Shown here: piece by piece, positions 2,056 through 6,953 of the stretch
Layout: each line of letters starts with the position of its first letter
Numbering within the stretch: the stretch's first letter is position 1
From: an uncultured virus (IMG/VR IMGVR_UViG_3300046794_000135)
Lineage: Duplodnaviria > Heunggongvirae > Uroviricota > Caudoviricetes
DNA length: 20,000 nt
Strand: one strand, 5' to 3'
Virus record (IMG/VR): IMGVR_UViG_3300046794_000135
Program-made: the position numbers and the translations under genes
The notes under the pieces: model-generated
Told to the model about the DNA's origin: nothing
The model's input: only the letters and a program-made list of their open reading frames with translations
The model's database searches: none

Positions 2056-2736
2056 TCAGGCCACACCGGCCAGCGCGATAAAATGCACCGAGTGTACGCA
2101 ATTCCCATCGAATCGAAGCTCTTTCGGCGGATTGAATTGCTCCAAGACCAGCTCGATGCTGTTTTGCCGGACGAAACGCTTCACGTAGGCCAAAAGCGGC
2201 CCATGCTCTTCCAGCCTCACCTGGGCGATCACGTAATCGCCACGCTTCACCCGTCGCCTTGGATCGACGAAGCAAACTTCGCCATCCTCGTACCTCGGCT
2301 CCATGCTCGAACCTGAGACTGCGACACCGTAGGCCCCCGATATGTGAGAGATCACCGGAGGTGCCATCACCTCGTAAAGCACTGTTCCGTTCATCAGAAA
2401 TTCCCCGTCAACGCCTCCTACGGCTTGCCCATAAACAGGGATTCGCCGCCCAAGACCTTCAACCTTATCCCCAACTGTCGCGTTCGGGGGATCAAATATA
2501 GGGGATGTTCTATCCGATTTCGGAACATCGTTAACAGCCTCCGATGTCCCATTTCCGAACATGAGGGACTCCGCGGTGATGTTCAGATGCGGGGCAATTT
2601 TTTCGGCCCATTCCTTCGTCAGCTTACGCTCACCGCTCTCCAAACGCTTGATTTGGGGCTGAGACGTGCCAACCAGCTCGGCCAATGCCGATTGGCTGAT
2701 GGAAATTTTTTCGCGTAACTCTTTGATCATGTTCAT
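2056..2736 (-). CDS. cI: CI-like prophage repressor (XRE HTH plus S24 peptidase)
   Basis: N-terminal HTH (ISQSALAELVGTSQPQIKRLESG), AVGG cleavage-type region, catalytic Ser in GSSMEP and Lys in YVKR; divergent from a cro-like gene. Confidence 0.93.
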   Translation of the reverse strand: MNMIKELREKISISQSALAELVGTSQPQIKRLESGERKLTKEWAEKIAPHLNITAESLMFGNGTSEAVNDVPKSDRTSPIFDPPNATVGDKVEGLGRRIPVYGQAVGGVDGEFLMNGTVLYEVMAPPVISHISGAYGVAVSGSSMEPRYEDGEVCFVDPRRRVKRGDYVIAQVRLEEHGPLLAYVKRFVRQNSIELVLEQFNPPKELRFDGNCVHSVHFIALAGVA

Positions 2737-2747
2737 ATACCGACATT

Positions 2748-2821
2748 ATTCCGATATGGAATTTTGTTCAAAAGCCATTTTGGTATGGAAAAACGCTTGC
2801 GTGCCGATGCCATTTTGGTAT
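2748..2821. promoter_or_regulatory. Right operators OR3 (2748-2762), OR2 (2772-2786), OR1 (2807-2821)
   Basis: ATTCCGATATGGAAT, AAGCCATTTTGGTAT and ATGCCATTTTGGTAT; consensus ATNCC-N5-GGHAT shared with OL. Confidence 0.8.
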
Positions 2822-2824
2822 TAT
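2797..2824 (+). promoter_or_regulatory. PR-like promoter
   Basis: TTGCGT-16 bp-TATTAT, with OR1 overlapping the -10; cro ATG 5 nt downstream. Confidence 0.65.
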
Positions 2825-2829
2825 GCAGC

Positions 2830-3069
2830 ATGACCCTTGAAGAATATCTCGAAAAGCAAGCACCGAAGCTCTCCCACGCCGAGTTTGGCGAGCGGGTTGG
2901 CGTGACGCAGGCAGCCATCAGCAGATACCTGAATGGCACTCGCTTTCCGTCTCCAGAGCTTATCCGGAAAATCCAGTCTGCGACGAACGACGTCGTGACG
3001 GCGAACGATCTTCTTGTCGGGTTTGAGAAAGCCAAATCGAAAAAGCAGGCACGGGAGAACGCCGCATGA
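2830..3069 (+). CDS. cro: Cro-like XRE HTH regulator
   Basis: MTLEEYL...LSHAEFGERVGVTQAAISRYLNGTRFPSPELIRKIQSAT...VTANDL; divergent from cI. Confidence 0.88.
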   Translation: MTLEEYLEKQAPKLSHAEFGERVGVTQAAISRYLNGTRFPSPELIRKIQSATNDVVTANDLLVGFEKAKSKKQARENAA

Positions 3070-3410
3070 GCTGGTGGGATCAAGCAACCGCCGAGCAGAA
3101 GCTCGCACAGATAGACGCTGGGATTTCCCTCGGCATGACCGGCAAGCAGATATCTATATGCTTGCGTGTCCCCGAGGTTGTGAACGGCAACAGTAAGGTT
3201 ACGGCCTTCGCTCATTCGCATGGCCGGAGTTTCCCGACGACACGGTCAATCGCCGCGATGCGAGGCGGGGCTGCAGCCGCGAAGACGCACAGCCTTCGCA
3301 TTCCAAGGCTATCCGGCACGCCTGAACACATGATCAGCGGCGCTTTCGATATTTTCGAGCGGGACGACGAGCGGGAAGAACTTTCGTTCGGTCTGGAGGC
3401 TGCGGAATGA
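3066..3410 (+). CDS. Hypothetical protein, possible N-terminal HTH (GcrA-like start)
   Basis: ATGA-coupled to cro; MSWW...GMTGKQISICL weakly resembles a GcrA-type N-terminal HTH. Confidence 0.65.
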   Translation: MSWWDQATAEQKLAQIDAGISLGMTGKQISICLRVPEVVNGNSKVTAFAHSHGRSFPTTRSIAAMRGGAAAAKTHSLRIPRLSGTPEHMISGAFDIFERDDEREELSFGLEAAE

Positions 3411-3658
3411 CCTGGAACCACAACATCAAAGCAGCCCCTCACAGCAAGAGCCAGCGCAGGGTTATCAGCACCACCAAGGGCGAGCGAGCCTACAACGAAA
3501 TTCAGCACGAGTACCTCATTCTCGAAACGAAGTGCGGGAAGGTTCTGAAATCATACTGGATCCCCGATGAAGAGCGTTGGGCTGGTCTGGCGACAGGTGA
3601 AGAGCCGATTGCGTGGCAGGAATGGCCCAAGCCTTCCAGAGCCCAGATCGCAGCATGA
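3407..3658 (+). CDS. DUF551-like hypothetical protein
   Basis: MTWNHNIKAAP ... PIAWQEWPKP terminal motifs; ATGA-coupled. Confidence 0.7.
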   Translation: MTWNHNIKAAPHSKSQRRVISTTKGERAYNEIQHEYLILETKCGKVLKSYWIPDEERWAGLATGEEPIAWQEWPKPSRAQIAA

Positions 3659-3689
3659 AACCCCCACCAAACACAGAGAGGGCGGATCG

Positions 3690-4007
3690 ATGACGTTTCG
3701 AGTTGGACAGAAAGTGTTCCTGGCCGTTGACTTCGATCCAGAAGTCAGGGCTTCGGCTCCGAGTGACGACATGATCTTACCTTCCACGGAGGTGGTCTAT
3801 ACGATCCGCCAGATTGGCGAGTTCGAAGGCGACCCGCTGGTTTGGCTTGAAGAGATCACCAACCGTCCGAGGTTTTATCTCGACGCTTTCGACTTCATGG
3901 AACAGGGGTTCGGAGCTTTCCGGTTCCGCCCAGTCGTTGAAGGGAAGGCCGATATCAGCCGGTTAAAAGCCATGCTCAATCCCTCGAAACAAGGTGTACC
4001 GGCATGA
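3690..4007 (+). CDS. Hypothetical phage protein (SH3/KOW-like start)
   Basis: MTFRVGQKV...YTIR...FRFRPVV pattern common in alphaproteobacterial phages; SD GAGGG upstream. Confidence 0.75.
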   Translation: MTFRVGQKVFLAVDFDPEVRASAPSDDMILPSTEVVYTIRQIGEFEGDPLVWLEEITNRPRFYLDAFDFMEQGFGAFRFRPVVEGKADISRLKAMLNPSKQGVPA

Positions 4008-4192
4008 GCGACACACTCTACCTGACTTTCCTCATCGTCGGCGTACCTGCCATCGGCATTGCGGCTCTCGTCTACTGCCTCTGCGTGAAAAGCGGGCAGT
4101 GCAGCCGCGAGGAAGAATCCGAGATTGCCGGCGCTCTTGAAGGCGACCTCACTCCCTACATCAAATCCCTGAACCGTGGAGAGGTGATGTGA
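4004..4192 (+). CDS. Small single-TM membrane protein
   Basis: Hydrophobic N-terminus LYLTFLIVGVPAIGIAALVYCLC; coupled overlaps. Confidence 0.7.
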   Translation: MSDTLYLTFLIVGVPAIGIAALVYCLCVKSGQCSREEESEIAGALEGDLTPYIKSLNRGEVM

Positions 4193-4470
4193 CCGAGTGG
4201 AGACCGATCGAGACCGCGCCGAAGAACACCAAGGTTCTCGCCGCCTATCAAAACGAGCATGGCAACTGGCGCATCGTGACTGCCTGTTATCACACGCAAC
4301 TCGACTGGTCCGACGAATACGGCGACCACGAGGAAGAGTTCGCGCCGGAGGATTGGTACGAGGAGAATGATAGCTCCGAAGTGATCTACCCTACCAGCCG
4401 GAAGCCCACACACTGGATGCCTCTACCGGCTCCACCCATCCTTAGCTCTGGTCCTCCCCCATTGAGCTAG
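4189..4470 (+). CDS. DUF551-family protein
   Basis: W.PIETAPK ... PTHWMPLPAPP signature; SD GGAGAGG. Confidence 0.85.
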   Translation: MTEWRPIETAPKNTKVLAAYQNEHGNWRIVTACYHTQLDWSDEYGDHEEEFAPEDWYEENDSSEVIYPTSRKPTHWMPLPAPPILSSGPPPLS

Positions 4471-4725
4471 GGCGCTGGCTCGGGCGGATCTCCTCTCCTG
4501 CCCGAGCCGGCACCAATTGCATACGCGGCAATTTCCATTGCGCGAACAATCTTACCGCAACCACGCCTAAAGGCTCGAAGCCCTCAAGCGCGGTTGCATC
4601 ACCAGCATCCGAGGCGGCGGCGGAAGGGTGCTGGTGAACTGAAATGACTGGTTGGCCCGAGCGGCGGACCATCGGAGATGACTGAGACTTAATCCCTGGC
4701 AGGATCTTGTTTTGATCATCTCCGA
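4440..4725 (+). ncRNA. Candidate structured RNA: array of about seven tandem hairpins
   Basis: Stems at 4440-4472, 4471-4514, 4515-4533, 4537-4550, 4557-4597, 4599-4637 and 4672-4725; the first two loops carry UCCUCCC and UCUCCUC. Confidence 0.55.
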
Positions 4726-4795
4726 CTTTATCGCGCTTCGACATGACTGTGTGGGCTCCGTTTACAAGGGCAACTTCGCACAGGAGAACGTCAAG

Positions 4796-5191
4796 GTGCT
4801 GGGAAACACGAACACGAGCTTGTCGAACAACGACAAGGAAAAACGAAACAGGAAGAAGGGCATGAGTGACGTCTGTTTGGCCCAAGGCCTATTGAGAGAC
4901 GCGTTCCCACCACGGCGGTACGGGAAAGTAGAAAGTGCTTTCTATGAGGCTCACAAGTTCATCAGCCGTCGCGTTCACAAGCAATTCACGCTTCGGCGTG
5001 TTCGCTCGATCTGGGAAGGTACAGCCCGAAGGATCGATAACGAGGAAATGGAAGCCCTAAAGGCTGCGCTTATCGAGGAGCATATGCGTGAACAAAGAGA
5101 ACTCCGTACCCGTCTGGCTTCGCTGGATGAGAAGATTGCCGCTTTCGATGCGCGCATCTCTCGCGAAGCACTGGAGGAAGGTGGCCGGTGA
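4796..5191 (+). CDS. Putative DNA-binding regulator (CII-like position)
   Basis: GTG start with SD AGGAG (alternative ATG at 4862); FTLRRVRSIWEGTARRID helix-turn-helix-like segment followed by a coiled coil. Confidence 0.65.
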   Translation: MLGNTNTSLSNNDKEKRNRKKGMSDVCLAQGLLRDAFPPRRYGKVESAFYEAHKFISRRVHKQFTLRRVRSIWEGTARRIDNEEMEALKAALIEEHMREQRELRTRLASLDEKIAAFDARISREALEEGGR

Positions 5192-5242
5192 CAGGATCGA
5201 CTGGGCTGATTGGATCATAGACGAGAACAAGGACGAAGATCG

Positions 5243-5509
5243 ATGACATCAGACACAGTCGCAAAAACCCAGCTTCGCGCCTTCGTGGAGCGGATCGAAA
5301 GATTGGAAGCCGAAAAGCAGACGATCACTGACGACGTCAAGGACGTCTATGGAGAGGCAAAGGGCATGGGCTTCGATACCAAGATCCTCAAGAAGGTCGT
5401 CGCCCTACGCAAGAAAGACGAGAACCAGCGCATGGAGGAAGAAGCCATCCTCGACAGCTATCTCGTCGCCCTCGGCATGCAGCCAGACCTGTTCCCCGGC
5501 GAAGGCTAA
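5243..5509 (+). CDS. gapR: GapR/DUF2312-family DNA-binding protein
   Basis: [50 protein letters not shown]...[15 protein letters not shown] is the DUF2312 signature. Confidence 0.92.
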
Positions 5510-5541
5510 CCAGTTCCCCAAGGCGCGCTCGACCTCCCAAG

Positions 5542-5581
5542 GAGCCGCCCAACTCAAGCCGTCCTAGGCGGCTCTTTCTTT
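5542..5581 (+). terminator. Intrinsic terminator, probably conditional
   Basis: GAGCCGCC/GGCGGCTC stem followed by TTTCTTT; a competing upstream arm lies at 5522-5530. Confidence 0.6.
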
Positions 5582-5597
5582 CCAAGACGAGGCAGAG

Positions 5598-6953
5598 ATG
5601 AACCTACCGGCAAGACAAAGCACTGTCCTAGACCTCGTAGACGAATACGAGGAAAAGAATGCGGCTATCGACGTCGAGCTCAAGGGCTTCGAGGAGGCGT
5701 TCACCCGCCTGGAGATGGCGGCATCGATCCAGGGCAAATACGTCTCGCCTATCACTCGCCACCGTCCGCATATCCATGCATCCGAGCTCCGCAAGGTTCT
5801 GCTGAAATCAGGCTGGAAGGCAATCTATGACCGCCTCCAGATCGATATGATTGCCAGCGCCAAGGATAAGAAGCTGTTCGAGCGCACGCTTGAAGAGCCA
5901 CCGGAGCTCACCTTCGATAATGCCAAGGCGACGTTCGGTGATTACCTCATGCGCCCGCGTCACCACATCCTACGCGGTCTGGCTGAAGTGTTTTCGGATC
6001 TCGATCAGGCTTACAAGTCGCATTCCAAGGTCAAGATCGGCGTCAAGGGTCTGCCGAAGCGTGTCATCATCAGCAGTTACGGCGGCTACGGCAGCTATGG
6101 CCGCGACAAGCTGCGGGACATCGTCAATGCGCTGGCAGCCTATCAAGGCAAGCCTCTGATGAACCATGACGAGCTCAGCGCCATTGCGGCCGCGCATGAC
6201 GCCAGCGAAGACGCCATCCTCGATGGCAGGTCGATCGCGTGGAAGAGCCGGCACCAGGCAGGTGAATACCCAACCCTCGATCGGGGAATCACGGTCAGGA
6301 AATTCAGCAATGGCAACGCTCACGTCTTCTTCGCGCCGAGCACGCTACTCGACATCAACCGAGCTCTAGCTGAGTTCTACGGCGAGGTTTTGCCAGATGC
6401 CGAGGAAGAGGACGCAAAGCGCCAGACCAGCACGGCTGTTTCGAAAGACCTGCAGTTCTACTGGTCGCCAGCAGAGGTGATCGCCAAGGCTCTGGACGAC
6501 ATCGGCATATACGGGAAAAGCTACTACAGCCGCCAGGAGCCGCCAGCCTATCGCGTGCTAGAGCCCTCCTGCGGAGATGGCCGGATCATGGACGAGCTCC
6601 GCAAGCGTGGTTGCCGGCCGTTCGGCATTGAGGTTCACGCCGGTCGTGCCGCCGAGGCGCGCGCCAAAGGTCATTCGGTAATGACTGGGAACTTCCTTGA
6701 GCAGCCCGCGCGCCCTGAGTTCGACTATGTGGTGATGAACCCGCCGTTCTACGGTCGACACTACGTCAAACACGTCAAGCACGCCCTGAAGTTCCTCAAG
6801 CCAGGCGGAACGCTCGTCTCCATCCTCCCAGCAACGGCTCACTACGACCACCAGGAGCTCCAAGGACAGTGGACAGACCTTCCAGTCGGCAGCTTCTCCG
6901 AAGCAGGCACCAACGTTCCTACGGGCATTCTGAAGATGAGGGCGCCGGCATGA
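5598..6953 (+). CDS. DUF4942-type protein with C-terminal SAM-dependent amino (N6-adenine) DNA methyltransferase domain
   Basis: Motif I VLEPSCGDG precedes motif IV VVMNPPF; ITVRKFSNGNAHVFF...INRALAEFYG in the N-terminal domain; C-terminal FSEAGTNV. Confidence 0.85.
   Translation: MNLPARQSTVLDLVDEYEEKNAAIDVELKGFEEAFTRLEMAASIQGKYVSPITRHRPHIHASELRKVLLKSGWKAIYDRLQIDMIASAKDKKLFERTLEEPPELTFDNAKATFGDYLMRPRHHILRGLAEVFSDLDQAYKSHSKVKIGVKGLPKRVIISSYGGYGSYGRDKLRDIVNALAAYQGKPLMNHDELSAIAAAHDASEDAILDGRSIAWKSRHQAGEYPTLDRGITVRKFSNGNAHVFFAPSTLLDINRALAEFYGEVLPDAEEEDAKRQTSTAVSKDLQFYWSPAEVIAKALDDIGIYGKSYYSRQEPPAYRVLEPSCGDGRIMDELRKRGCRPFGIEVHAGRAAEARAKGHSVMTGNFLEQPARPEFDYVVMNPPFYGRHYVKHVKHALKFLKPGGTLVSILPATAHYDHQELQGQWTDLPVGSFSEAGTNVPTGILKMRAPA

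What the first reader, a model, noticed from the sequence alone, without database searches (positions are those of the whole stretch)
4440..4725. About 290-nt array of seven tandem hairpins with anti-SD-like (CCUCC) and G-rich loops in the early operon
Seen: back-to-back stems CCTTAGCTC/GAGCTAGGG (loop TCCTCCC), GGCGCTGGCTCGGGC/GCCCGAGCCGGCACC (loop TCTCCTC), AATTGC/GCAATT, ATTG/CAAT, GCAACCACGC/GCGCGGTTGC, TCACCAGCATCC/GGGTGCTGGTGA (loop GAGGCGGCGGCGGAA) and TCGGAGATGA/TCATCTCCGA. G-U pairs in the first, second and sixth stems favour the + strand. Known: alphaproteobacterial cuckoo/alpha-r14 sRNAs are tandem hairpins with CCUCCUCCC loops, and HK022 put and P4 CI are phage RNAs controlling termination. 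Inference: a phage sRNA or cis-acting antitermination RNA, with possible CCUC/GAGG loop-loop contacts.
Basis: partly seen in the sequence, partly recalled or inferred. Interest (0 to 1): 0.7.

Follow-up and report, generated by a model that had tools for sequence, protein, structure and literature searches.

The report
Hairpin array over antisense phage gene
In a temperate Rhizobium-type phage, one 300-base stretch carries conserved RNA hairpins on both DNA strands and also encodes a small protein, so the hairpins have visibly shaped that protein's amino-acid sequence.

Summary
The hairpin cluster at 4440-4725 is real. Both strands fold far better than shuffles (z -6.05 and -7.83), and it is the only such cluster in the 20-kb window. 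It is conserved in 11 related phage loci with compensatory stem changes (27 of 45 consensus pairs; 0 of 500 shuffles reach this).

It is not simply intergenic RNA. Most of it lies inside a conserved minus-strand ORF of 100 aa (4442-4744), which has a conserved GGAG site and ATG, synonymous-codon variation, and about 76 protein clusters in public data.

The array is composite:
- **Hairpins A and B (4440-4514)** carry CCUCC-type loops, have G-U pairs on the + (early-operon) strand (32 versus 6), and give sub-threshold Rfam ar14 hits in 5 of 11 homologues.
- **Hairpin D (4557-4597)** is a hairpin of the minus-strand mRNA. It shows as reverse-complement-compatible amino-acid pairs in 50 of 57 protein clusters.
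- **Loop motifs** are conserved as nucleotides and are read in all three reading frames.

My best reading is a convergent sense/antisense RNA module: cuckoo/ar14-like anti-SD hairpins on the operon transcript, overlapping a structured mRNA for a small, mostly disordered protein. The function is inferred; I have no transcript data.

The parts
4440..4472 (+). Hairpin A: stem CCTTAGCTC/GAGCTAGGG, loop with UCCUCCCCC. It overlaps the last codons of both convergent ORFs.
   Evidence: Homologues have a hairpin here with different stems and CCUCC-type loops, with exact CCUCCUCCC in L005. The A/B module has 32 G-U pairs on the operon strand against 6 on the other.
4471..4514 (+). Hairpin B: 15-bp stem, loop with CUCCUCUCC
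   Evidence: Covarying stems (helices 2 and 3). 22 G-U pairs on the operon strand against 3, and the operon strand is more stable in 9 of 9. Aligned to an ar14 hairpin in homologues.
4528..4541 (.). Hairpin C: small stem GCAAT/ATTGC with the Trp codon in the loop, inside the conserved A-x-W-x-L-P-R-M coding motif
   Evidence: My reading of the folds: the equivalent stems are GCAGAG/CTCTGC in L002, L007 and L008, and GGCAAC/GTTGCC in L006.
4557..4597 (-). Hairpin D: 19-bp stem on the minus-strand RNA with 4 G-U pairs, in the middle of the small ORF
   Evidence: Helix 4 has 10 of 14 pairs with changes on both sides. 25 G-U pairs on the protein strand against 5. Amino-acid-level covariation in 50 of 57 clusters.
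4599..4637 (.). Hairpin E: stem TCACCAGCATCC/GGGTGCTGGTGA, loop GAGGCGGCGGCGGAA
   Evidence: Varied stems around an invariant GCGGCGG loop core. The loop is read as Ala, Pro or Arg codons in different homologues.
4649..4671 (.). Hairpin F: short stem-loop
   Evidence: A hairpin at the same place in the homologue folds.
4672..4725 (.). Hairpin G: stem TCGGAGATGA/TCATCTCCGA with an inner stem. Its arms encode the conserved G-D-D/E and S-S-P/P-S-S residues.
   Evidence: Helices 5 and 6. No strand bias: 24 against 22 G-U pairs.
4442..4744 (-). Small ORF of 100 aa (P0001), ATG at 4744-4742, stop at 4444-4442
   Evidence: It is the only stop-free frame in 11 of 11 homologues, and conserved residues use synonymous codons. 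Family of 76 clusters. No hit in Pfam, PHROGs, NCBIfam, PADLOC or PDB sequences. AlphaFold2 pLDDT 58.7 with one helix at residues 59-69.
4756..4759 (-). GGAG ribosome-binding site of the small ORF, 11 nt before the ATG
   Evidence: GGAG (AAGGA in L011) precedes the ATG in all 12 family members.
4790..4795 (-). CTTGAC on the minus strand, a possible -35 box for the small gene (inferred)
   Evidence: CACCTTG is conserved in 5 of 12 upstream regions, with near variants in 2 more. The E. coli-type promoter scan found nothing. The rhizobial -35 consensus is recalled, not tested.
4820..4836 (.). Hairpin H: TTGTCG aacaa CGACAA, between the two divergent starts
   Evidence: a hairpin at the same place in most homologues, with different stems (GCGGG/CCCGC, TTGGAG/CTCCAA, CGGAAA/TTTCCG, CCCGA/TCGGG, CTTGGG/CCCAAG).
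4189..4470 (+). Upstream early gene (DUF551). Its stop at 4468-4470 lies in the 3' arm of hairpin A.
   Evidence: Pfam DUF551, E 5.9e-6. The upstream ORF ends from 8 nt before to 30 nt after the start of hairpin A in 12 of 12 loci.
4862..5191 (+). Next early gene (phrog_26665, unknown function), divergent from the small ORF

Best explanation
The 'array' is a composite two-strand RNA module inside the early operon of a P22-like temperate rhizobiophage.

On the + (operon) strand, hairpins A and B sit at the stop codon of the upstream gene. They expose CCUCC-type anti-Shine-Dalgarno loops, as cuckoo/ar14 sRNAs do.

On the - strand, a small gene with its own GGAG site and ATG is transcribed towards them. 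Its mRNA is tiled with hairpins G, F, E, D and C and encodes a protein of about 100 aa that is mostly disordered.

Shown: the hairpins, their covariation, the strand of A/B and of D, the nucleotide-level conservation of the loops, and the coding signature of the ORF.

Inferred: the operon transcript yields an anti-SD RNA domain, possibly processed from the 3' end of the upstream cistron, that pairs with SD regions. The fully complementary antisense mRNA and the operon transcript meet through their loops, so each limits the other. This would give a switch between the repressed prophage (small gene on) and the induced phage (operon read-through).
For: - **Folding excess.** It holds on both strands in the window and in all 9 homologous coding sequences tested (operon strand z -3.1 to -7.75).
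- **Covariation.** 89.9% of cells are paired against 73.7% in shuffles. 27 of 45 pairs have changes on both sides against 15.3 (0 of 500 shuffles reach this), and slid controls give 7-10.
- **Hairpins A/B.** 10 of 12 members have two adjacent hairpins of 29-43 nt, 0-3 nt apart, with C/U-rich loops, all but two holding a CCUCC-type word. G-U pairs number 32 on the operon strand against 6. For B alone the count is 22 against 3, and the operon strand is more stable in 9 of 9. ar14 hits fall at exactly this spot and strand in 5 of 11 loci, plus one CcsR1 hit.
- **Hairpin D.** G-U pairs number 25 on the protein strand against 5. In 57 protein clusters, the residue pairs across the stem are reverse-complement compatible in 37 with Watson-Crick pairs only, in 50 if G-U is allowed on the protein strand, and in 38 if G-U is allowed on the other strand. 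The permuted mean is 12.5 and the maximum 24 of 2000.
- **Loops conserved as nucleotides.** The (CCG)n loop of hairpin E is read as Ala-Ala in 4 members, Pro-Pro-Pro in 5 and Arg-Arg in 3. The purine-rich complements of loops A and B are also read in different phases.
- **Coding.** Only one of the six frames is open, in 11 of 11 members. Arg90 is encoded by CGT/CGC in 5 and AGA in 5. GGAG plus ATG is conserved. The family has 76 clusters.
Against: - I have no transcript ends or strand data. The only RNA-library trace is one 301-nt contig of a mosaic relative over 4517-4626, and it could be DNA carry-over.
- No promoter-like or terminator-like site was predicted in or beside the array.
- The window's own A/B region gives no ar14 hit even at E<=10. 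All ar14 hits are far below the gathering score.
- Hairpins E and G show no strand bias.
- In L009, a homing-endonuclease gene replaces hairpin D and splits the ORF. That part may therefore be dispensable.
- The protein has no confident fold.
- Predicted pairing of loops A and B with start regions in the window singles out no target: the best is -17.2 kcal/mol and the next is -15.8.
Confidence: 0.45

Rival explanations
1. The hairpins are passive RNA armour. The antisense gene leaves about 390 nt of the operon transcript untranslated. Tight folding protects that stretch from Rho and RNases. It also keeps the two complementary RNAs from annealing into RNase III substrates. In this reading the CU-rich loops have no target.
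For: No + strand ORF covers 4471-4861. The + strand there is C-rich (GC skew -0.106). Stems are almost all Watson-Crick: 529 Watson-Crick, 14 G-T, 14 A-C. E and G show no strand bias. None of the hairpins looks like a terminator.
Against: Loop sequences (CCUCC-type and GCGGCGG) are conserved across three reading frames while the stems vary. Pure armour would not require that. The ar14-like hits fall on one strand only.
Confidence: 0.25
2. One reading: one non-coding + strand RNA of seven hairpins, acting as an sRNA or as a cis antitermination element like HK022 put or P4 CI.
For: The + strand folds well. A and B favour the + strand. The operon-strand z-score is the more negative in 7 of 9 homologues.
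Against: A conserved, translatable minus-strand ORF covers hairpins C to G. Hairpin D favours the minus strand. No Rfam family reaches threshold, and no C4 or put-type hit appears. The array lies about 1.7 kb downstream of the cro-like gene, not just after a promoter.
Confidence: 0.06
3. The palindromes act as DNA: hairpins in single-stranded DNA or cruciforms, serving for example as a priming or replication signal or a recombination hotspot.
For: Stems are nearly perfect palindromes with equal numbers of G-T and A-C mismatches overall. Mosaic breakpoints fall between hairpins, at 4517 and 4649-4653, in several metagenome contigs.
Against: The mismatch types are strongly strand-specific per hairpin, and in opposite directions (B 22:3, D 5:25). 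That fits two RNAs better than DNA. Loops of 14-34 nt are poor for cruciform extrusion (established knowledge). The replication genes lie 3 kb away.
Confidence: 0.05
4. It is an ordinary small protein gene, and the hairpins are a by-product of mutation (template switching that perfects quasi-palindromes) with no function.
For: The coding signature is clear. The stems are unusually perfect.
Against: The same hairpins sit at the same positions across sequences with dS above 1. Hairpin D persists through 57 clusters at 50% identity or less. Loops are conserved independently of frame.
Confidence: 0.04

Closest known systems
Cuckoo / ar14 family of alphaproteobacterial sRNAs (NfeR1 of Sinorhizobium, CcsR1-4 of Rhodobacter)
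   Same: Adjacent hairpins with variable stems and a conserved C/U-rich anti-SD loop motif. The family definition comes from passages of PMC4615179 and PMC10746234. Hairpins A and B fit the geometry and draw ar14 and CcsR1 hits on the right strand. [quoted passage not shown]
   Different: Scores are 24-35 bits against a gathering score of 58.8, with no hit in the window itself. The motif is usually degenerate (UCCUCCCCC, CUCCUCUCC). There is no U-tail terminator. The element is phage-borne, overlaps two ORF ends, and is followed by five further hairpins that lack the motif.
Cis-antisense RNAs of temperate phages (lambda OOP against cII, P22 sar against ant); recalled, not tested
   Same: A transcript made against the direction of an early operon and overlapping the 3' end of an early gene.
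   Different: Those RNAs are short and non-coding. This one would be an mRNA of 300 nt or more for a conserved protein, and no transcript has been shown.
ColE1 RNA I / RNA II and R1 CopA / CopT kissing pairs; recalled
   Same: Several consecutive stem-loops are needed on both complementary RNAs, so the stems stay Watson-Crick on both strands and the loops make first contact.
   Different: Those control plasmid copy number. Loop-loop contact here is only inferred.
   Same: Structured phage RNA within an early transcript.
   Different: The put sites lie just after the early promoters and consist of two stem-loops. P4 CI is a processed RNA of about 70 nt with repeated target sequences. No sequence or model match was found, and the position differs.
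Dual-function RNAs and coding regions with embedded RNA structure (SgrS/SgrT, RNAIII/hld); recalled
   Same: A single RNA that is both structured or regulatory and translated.
   Different: Here nearly every codon lies in a conserved hairpin, and the opposite strand carries its own structured element.

Membership tests
Cuckoo / ar14 sRNA family (RF02344, RF02791) | Two to four adjacent hairpins of 24-50 nt, each with at least 6 bp, linkers of 10 nt or less, no multiloop (thermodynamic matcher of PMC4615179) | tested here: met
   Window: hairpin A is 33 nt with 12 pairs, hairpin B is 38 nt with 15 pairs, linker 1 nt. 10 of 12 family members have two such hairpins, and L001 and L010 have one.
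Cuckoo / ar14 sRNA family (RF02344, RF02791) | Each hairpin loop carries CCUCCUCCC or an accepted variant, in a loop of 9-27 nt | tested here: inconclusive
   The exact motif occurs only in L005 hairpin A, and UCCUCCUCCC in L006. The other loops have partial CU motifs, and some minimum-free-energy loops are only 5-7 nt. The paper's list of accepted variants is in a figure I could not see.
Cuckoo / ar14 sRNA family (RF02344, RF02791) | Reaches the Rfam gathering score | tested here: not met
   The best hit is 35.5 bits against 58.8 (L011). There are 5 of 11 loci with E<=2, and no hit in the window at E<=10.
Cuckoo / ar14 sRNA family (RF02344, RF02791) | Last hairpin followed by a U-tail (ar14 consensus ends UuUuu) | tested here: not met
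   There is no T-run after hairpin B, and no terminator-like site in 4440-4860.
Cuckoo / ar14 sRNA family (RF02344, RF02791) | Represses translation by pairing of its loops with ribosome-binding sites | not testable with these tools
   Duplex predictions against 23 start regions of the window were not discriminating.
Protein-coding gene (minus strand, 4442-4744) | Frame kept open, start signals conserved, synonymous variation at conserved residues | tested here: met
   0 stops in one frame and 1-6 stops in each of the other five frames, in 11 of 11 members. Arg90 is CGT 4, CGC 1, AGA 5. Leu88 uses four codons. GGAG plus ATG is conserved. dN/dS is 0.14-0.85 in the 35 of 36 pairs with a defined value.
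Intrinsic (Rho-independent) terminators | G+C-rich hairpin followed by a T-run | tested here: not met
   None of the 6 terminator-like sites in 2600-5700 falls in 4440-4860.
HK022 put / P4 CI-type antitermination or immunity RNA | Sequence or structure match, and a position just downstream of the early promoter (put) | tested here: not met
   No Rfam hit of that type. The array lies about 1.7 kb downstream of the cro-like gene start. The defining features are recalled.
Cis-antisense RNA pair | Both strands transcribed, with overlapping transcripts | not testable with these tools
   Only contigs of public runs were available. One RNA-library contig of a relative covers 4517-4626, with its strand unknown.

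The most novel reading that the evidence does not exclude
Temperate rhizobiophages carry a mobile cassette in which a mimic of the host's ar14/NfeR1 anti-SD sRNAs is overprinted by a protein gene on the opposite strand. The opposite-strand RNA, with GGAGG-type loops, could instead act as a sponge for those host sRNAs. On induction the phage would use the cassette to rewire host translation, for example transport and nitrogen-stress mRNAs. The protein's sequence would be largely dictated by RNA hairpins rather than by its own fold.
Probability: 0.2. Interest if true: 0.85.

Novelty: new variant of a known kind. Interest (0 to 1): 0.68.

Why it matters
- **Dual coding.** This would be an unusually clear case. 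RNA hairpins on both strands and a reading frame share the same 300 nt, and the stem pairing shows in protein alignments as covarying residues (I-E with S-I, T-E with S-V, S-S with E-L).
- **New niche for a host sRNA type.** It would place cuckoo/ar14-like anti-SD hairpins, so far described as chromosomal and plasmid sRNAs of Alphaproteobacteria, in phage early operons.
- **Testable.** The module occurs in cultured phages (RHph_N3_2, RHph_I3_18, RHph_N2, RHEph18).
- **Annotation warning.** 'Hypothetical protein' families can owe much of their apparent conservation to RNA structure.
- **Prior description.** I found none. The searches were 'cuckoo RNA' plus 'prophage' (0 papers), Rhizobium phage / RHph_N3_2 and antisense/early-operon terms.

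Tried and rejected
- **Rfam.** At gathering score over the whole window there were 0 hits. At E<=10 over 4100-5100 there were only MIR473 and a snoRNA, which I take as noise.
- **Own genome.** None is held.
- **Other collections.** Plasmids gave no DNA or protein match. In genome contigs, 15 pattern matches held no relative. In metagenome contigs there were 3 loci. L012 appears to be the same contig as L003 (same length and overlapping range). L013 and L014 are a roughly 300-aa ORF that shares only the AVRLFAQWGLPR motif; it looks like a prenyl-diphosphate synthase, which is my recollection and not tested. I dropped them as false positives.
- Alignment A1 was too variable for two scans.
- **Promoter scan.** It found nothing.
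- **Loop targets.** Pairing of loops A and B with 23 start regions was not decisive.
- **Alignments.** MAFFT alignments of hairpin A and hairpin E were out of register, so I made no formal pair count for them. For these I rely on per-sequence folds.
- **Small protein.** The protein atlas gave no usable hit. A profile search of PDB sequences gave none. NCBIfam and PADLOC gave none.
- **Deeper structure prediction.** A second AlphaFold2 run with the 63-sequence alignment was not accepted, so the fold rests on an 18-sequence model.
- **Public runs.** Only contigs were available, with no starts, ends or strand.
- **Earlier scan notes.** Nothing on this DNA. One unrelated note on another genome was not used.
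- **Supplements.** I opened none.

Full report
**Context.** The window is part of a P22-like temperate phage or prophage of the Rhizobium type.
- It has a cI-like repressor (HTH_3 plus Peptidase_S24, 2056-2736, minus strand) divergent from a cro-like gene (2764-3069).
- An early operon runs on the + strand. Further downstream lie a large terminase, a P22-type portal and a capsid gene.
- No whole genome is held for the window.
- The nearest named relatives are Rhizobium phages RHph_N3_2, RHph_I3_18, RHph_N2 and RHEph18.

**The observation.**
- The 286 nt fold at -135.2 kcal/mol on the + strand (z -6.05) and at -145.2 on the - strand (z -7.83). None of 200 shuffles does as well on either strand.
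- A strand-neutral palindrome scan of the window finds 14 hairpins of score >=8. Shuffles give 7-20, so that count is chance. However, the four scoring >=9 all lie in 4471-4725.
- None of the hairpins looks like an intrinsic terminator, and no sigma-70-type promoter is predicted nearby.
- Rfam gives nothing in the window at gathering score, and only noise at E<=10.

A minus-strand ORF runs from ATG 4744 to stop 4442 (100 aa, P0001). It lies between the DUF551 gene (4189-4470, +) and the next early gene (4862-5191, +).
- RHph_N3_2 has an annotated 86-aa gene in the same place and orientation, 34% identical (E 3e-10).
- I gathered 12 database proteins and 8 viral-contig loci (34 pattern matches, 8 confirmed). 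Two further cultured-phage loci come from the four phage records hit: I fetched RHph_I3_18 and RHph_N2, RHEph18 closely matches RHph_N2, and RHph_N3_2 was already held.
- A profile search then found 76 clusters at 50% identity with E<=1e-3, nearly all 83-109 aa.
- In 11 of 11 DNA homologues analysed (L009 set aside), only this frame has no stop. The other five frames have 1-6 stops each.
- Conserved residues use several codons: Arg90 is CGT 4, CGC 1, AGA 5; Leu88 uses four codons; Val43 uses three.
- GGAG, 7-11 nt before an ATG, is conserved.
- dN/dS is 0.14-0.85 in the 35 of 36 pairs with a defined value.
- I conclude the ORF is a real gene. It has no Pfam, PHROGs, NCBIfam, PADLOC or PDB-sequence relative. 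AlphaFold2 with 18 sequences gives pLDDT 58.7 and one helix at residues 59-69. Conservation is concentrated in P-V-I and G-x-x-A-V-R-L-x-A-x-W-x-L-P-R.

**The hairpins are conserved too.**
- All 9 homologous coding sequences tested fold better than shuffles. The operon-strand z is -3.1 to -7.75 and the protein-strand z is -1.6 to -6.9.
- Their folds put hairpins at the same positions with different stem sequences.
- On a plain MAFFT alignment of 9 sequences, RNAalifold finds 45 consensus pairs, 27 with changes on both sides.
- The pair count gives 89.9% paired cells against 73.7% in shuffles. The 27 double-change pairs compare with 15.3 in shuffles (0 of 500 reach it) and with 7-10 when partners are slid by 1-3 columns.

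**Loops are conserved as nucleotides, not as amino acids.**
- The GCGGCGG core of loop E is invariant in 10 of 10 aligned sequences.
- On the coding strand it is read as Ala codons in the window, L002, L003 and L011; as Pro codons in L004-L008; and as Arg codons in L001, L009 and L010.
- The purine-rich complements of loops A and B are also read in different phases.
- The frame is nevertheless restored before the conserved C-terminal motif. So both the RNA elements and an open frame appear to be under selection.

**Which strand?** Pooled over all stems there is no bias: 529 Watson-Crick, 14 G-T and 14 A-C. Taken hairpin by hairpin, the picture splits.
- **A/B:** 32 G-U pairs on the operon strand against 6, with the operon strand more stable in 9 of 12.
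- **B alone:** 22 against 3, with the operon strand more stable in 9 of 9.
- **D:** 5 against 25, with the protein strand more stable in 8 of 11, by 5.65 kcal/mol on average.
- **E and G:** neutral, at 7:9 and 24:22.

An independent test needs no DNA. In hairpin D the first two bases of two codons on the 5' arm pair with those of two codons on the 3' arm.
- 57 of the 63 aligned cluster representatives had both anchor motifs; the other 6 were dropped for lacking one.
- Both residue pairs are reverse-complement compatible in 37 with Watson-Crick pairs only.
- The count rises to 50 if G-U is allowed on the protein strand, and to only 38 if G-U is allowed on the operon strand.
- Permuted pairings average 6.2, 12.5 and 7.9 respectively, with maxima of 14, 24 and 16 in 2000 permutations.

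Hairpin D is therefore a family-wide hairpin of the small gene's mRNA, while A and B are hairpins of the operon transcript. This argues against a purely DNA-level role.

**Hairpins A/B and known RNAs.**
- In 10 of 12 members, A and B are adjacent (0-3 nt apart) hairpins of 29-43 nt with 9-16 pairs and C/U-rich loops, all but two holding a CCUCC-type word. L005 has the exact CCUCCUCCC.
- The cuckoo/ar14 family is defined as 2-4 adjacent hairpins with variable stems, each loop carrying CCUCCUCCC, an anti-SD motif. I read passages of PMC4615179 and PMC10746234.
- An E-value Rfam scan of the 11 homologous loci gave ar14 (RF02344) hits at exactly this place and strand in 5 of 11: 35.5, 34.8, 30.2, 27.0 and 24.2 bits, with E from 0.006 to 1.9. 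It also gave one CcsR1 hit and one ar7 hit. The alignments match ar14 hairpins to A and B.
- All are below the gathering score of 58.8, the window itself has no hit, and there is no U-tail. So I file A/B as working like this family, not as a member.
- The upstream + ORF ends from 8 nt before to 30 nt after the start of hairpin A in 12 of 12 loci. In the window the two convergent ORFs overlap by 29 nt inside hairpin A.

**Other anatomy.**
- Upstream of the small gene there is a CTTGAC (4795-4790, minus strand). CACCTTG is conserved in 5 of 12 upstream regions. A further covarying hairpin, H, lies at 4820-4836. A promoter role for the CTTGAC is inferred.
- In L009 an HNH_3 plus AP2 homing-endonuclease gene on the operon strand replaces hairpin D and splits the ORF. 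The ORF stays open in the codon-aligned antisense frame.
- Public-run contigs show mosaic breakpoints at 4517 and 4649-4653, between hairpins. One 301-nt contig from an RNA library covers 4517-4626 of a relative. Its strand is unknown and it could be DNA.

**How it most likely works (inference).** Two convergent transcripts share this DNA.
- The early-operon RNA presents anti-SD loops at the end of the upstream cistron. It could act on SD regions in cis or in trans, perhaps after processing. [quoted passage not shown]
- The antisense mRNA, fully complementary and itself tightly folded, encodes a small disordered protein. It would meet the operon RNA through the loops.
- The result would be mutual control tied to the state of the prophage.
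- I put this at about 0.45. The main rival, at 0.25, is that the hairpins only protect the RNAs: from Rho and RNases across an untranslated gap of about 390 nt, and from annealing to each other.
- A single non-coding + strand RNA, a DNA-level role, and a functionless by-product are each unlikely, for the reasons listed under the rival explanations.

**Novelty.** I found no description of such a module. A phage-encoded trans-acting sRNA has precedent in bioRxiv 10.1101/2024.10.31.621285, for which I saw the listing and the start of the abstract only. I rate this as a new variant of known kinds: anti-SD hairpin sRNAs and cis-antisense pairs. Its unusual feature is that the hairpins dictate covarying residues in the overlapping protein.

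Noticed in passing
L009:2425-2985 (- strand of the locus, which is the operon strand) and L009:3288-3821: Two HNH_3 plus AP2 homing-endonuclease genes. The first is inserted inside the hairpin array and replaces hairpin D. The small ORF stays open through it in the codon-aligned antisense frame.
   Followed up: partly
window 4820-4836: An eighth hairpin (TTGTCG aacaa CGACAA) between the divergent starts of the small gene and the next early gene. It is present with different stems in most homologues.
   Followed up: partly
window 4213-4436: The DUF551 gene region is 80.4% identical in DNA to a record named Microcystis phage Mwe-JY13. This is an odd host label for a sequence otherwise seen in Rhizobium phages.
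   Followed up: no
window 5210-5509 and 5557-5573: A GapR-like DNA-binding gene (Pfam E 8e-32) is followed by the only terminator-like hairpin with a T-run on the + strand of this region.
   Followed up: no
window 4517 and 4649-4653: Contigs from several metagenome runs stop matching the window at these points, which fall between hairpins. This suggests that hairpin modules are exchanged by recombination.
   Followed up: no
window 5598-6953: A DUF4942 plus methyltransferase-domain protein of 451 aa in the early operon.
   Followed up: no
L013, L014 (metagenome contigs): An unrelated ORF of about 300 aa contains AVRLFAQWGLPR, nearly the same peptide as the conserved motif of the small protein. 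I took this as coincidence.
   Followed up: partly
window 4648-4670 and homologues: Hairpin F also carries a CCGCCGC-type motif on the coding strand, read as Arg-Arg in most members. The same triplet-repeat word therefore occurs in two neighbouring hairpins.
   Followed up: no
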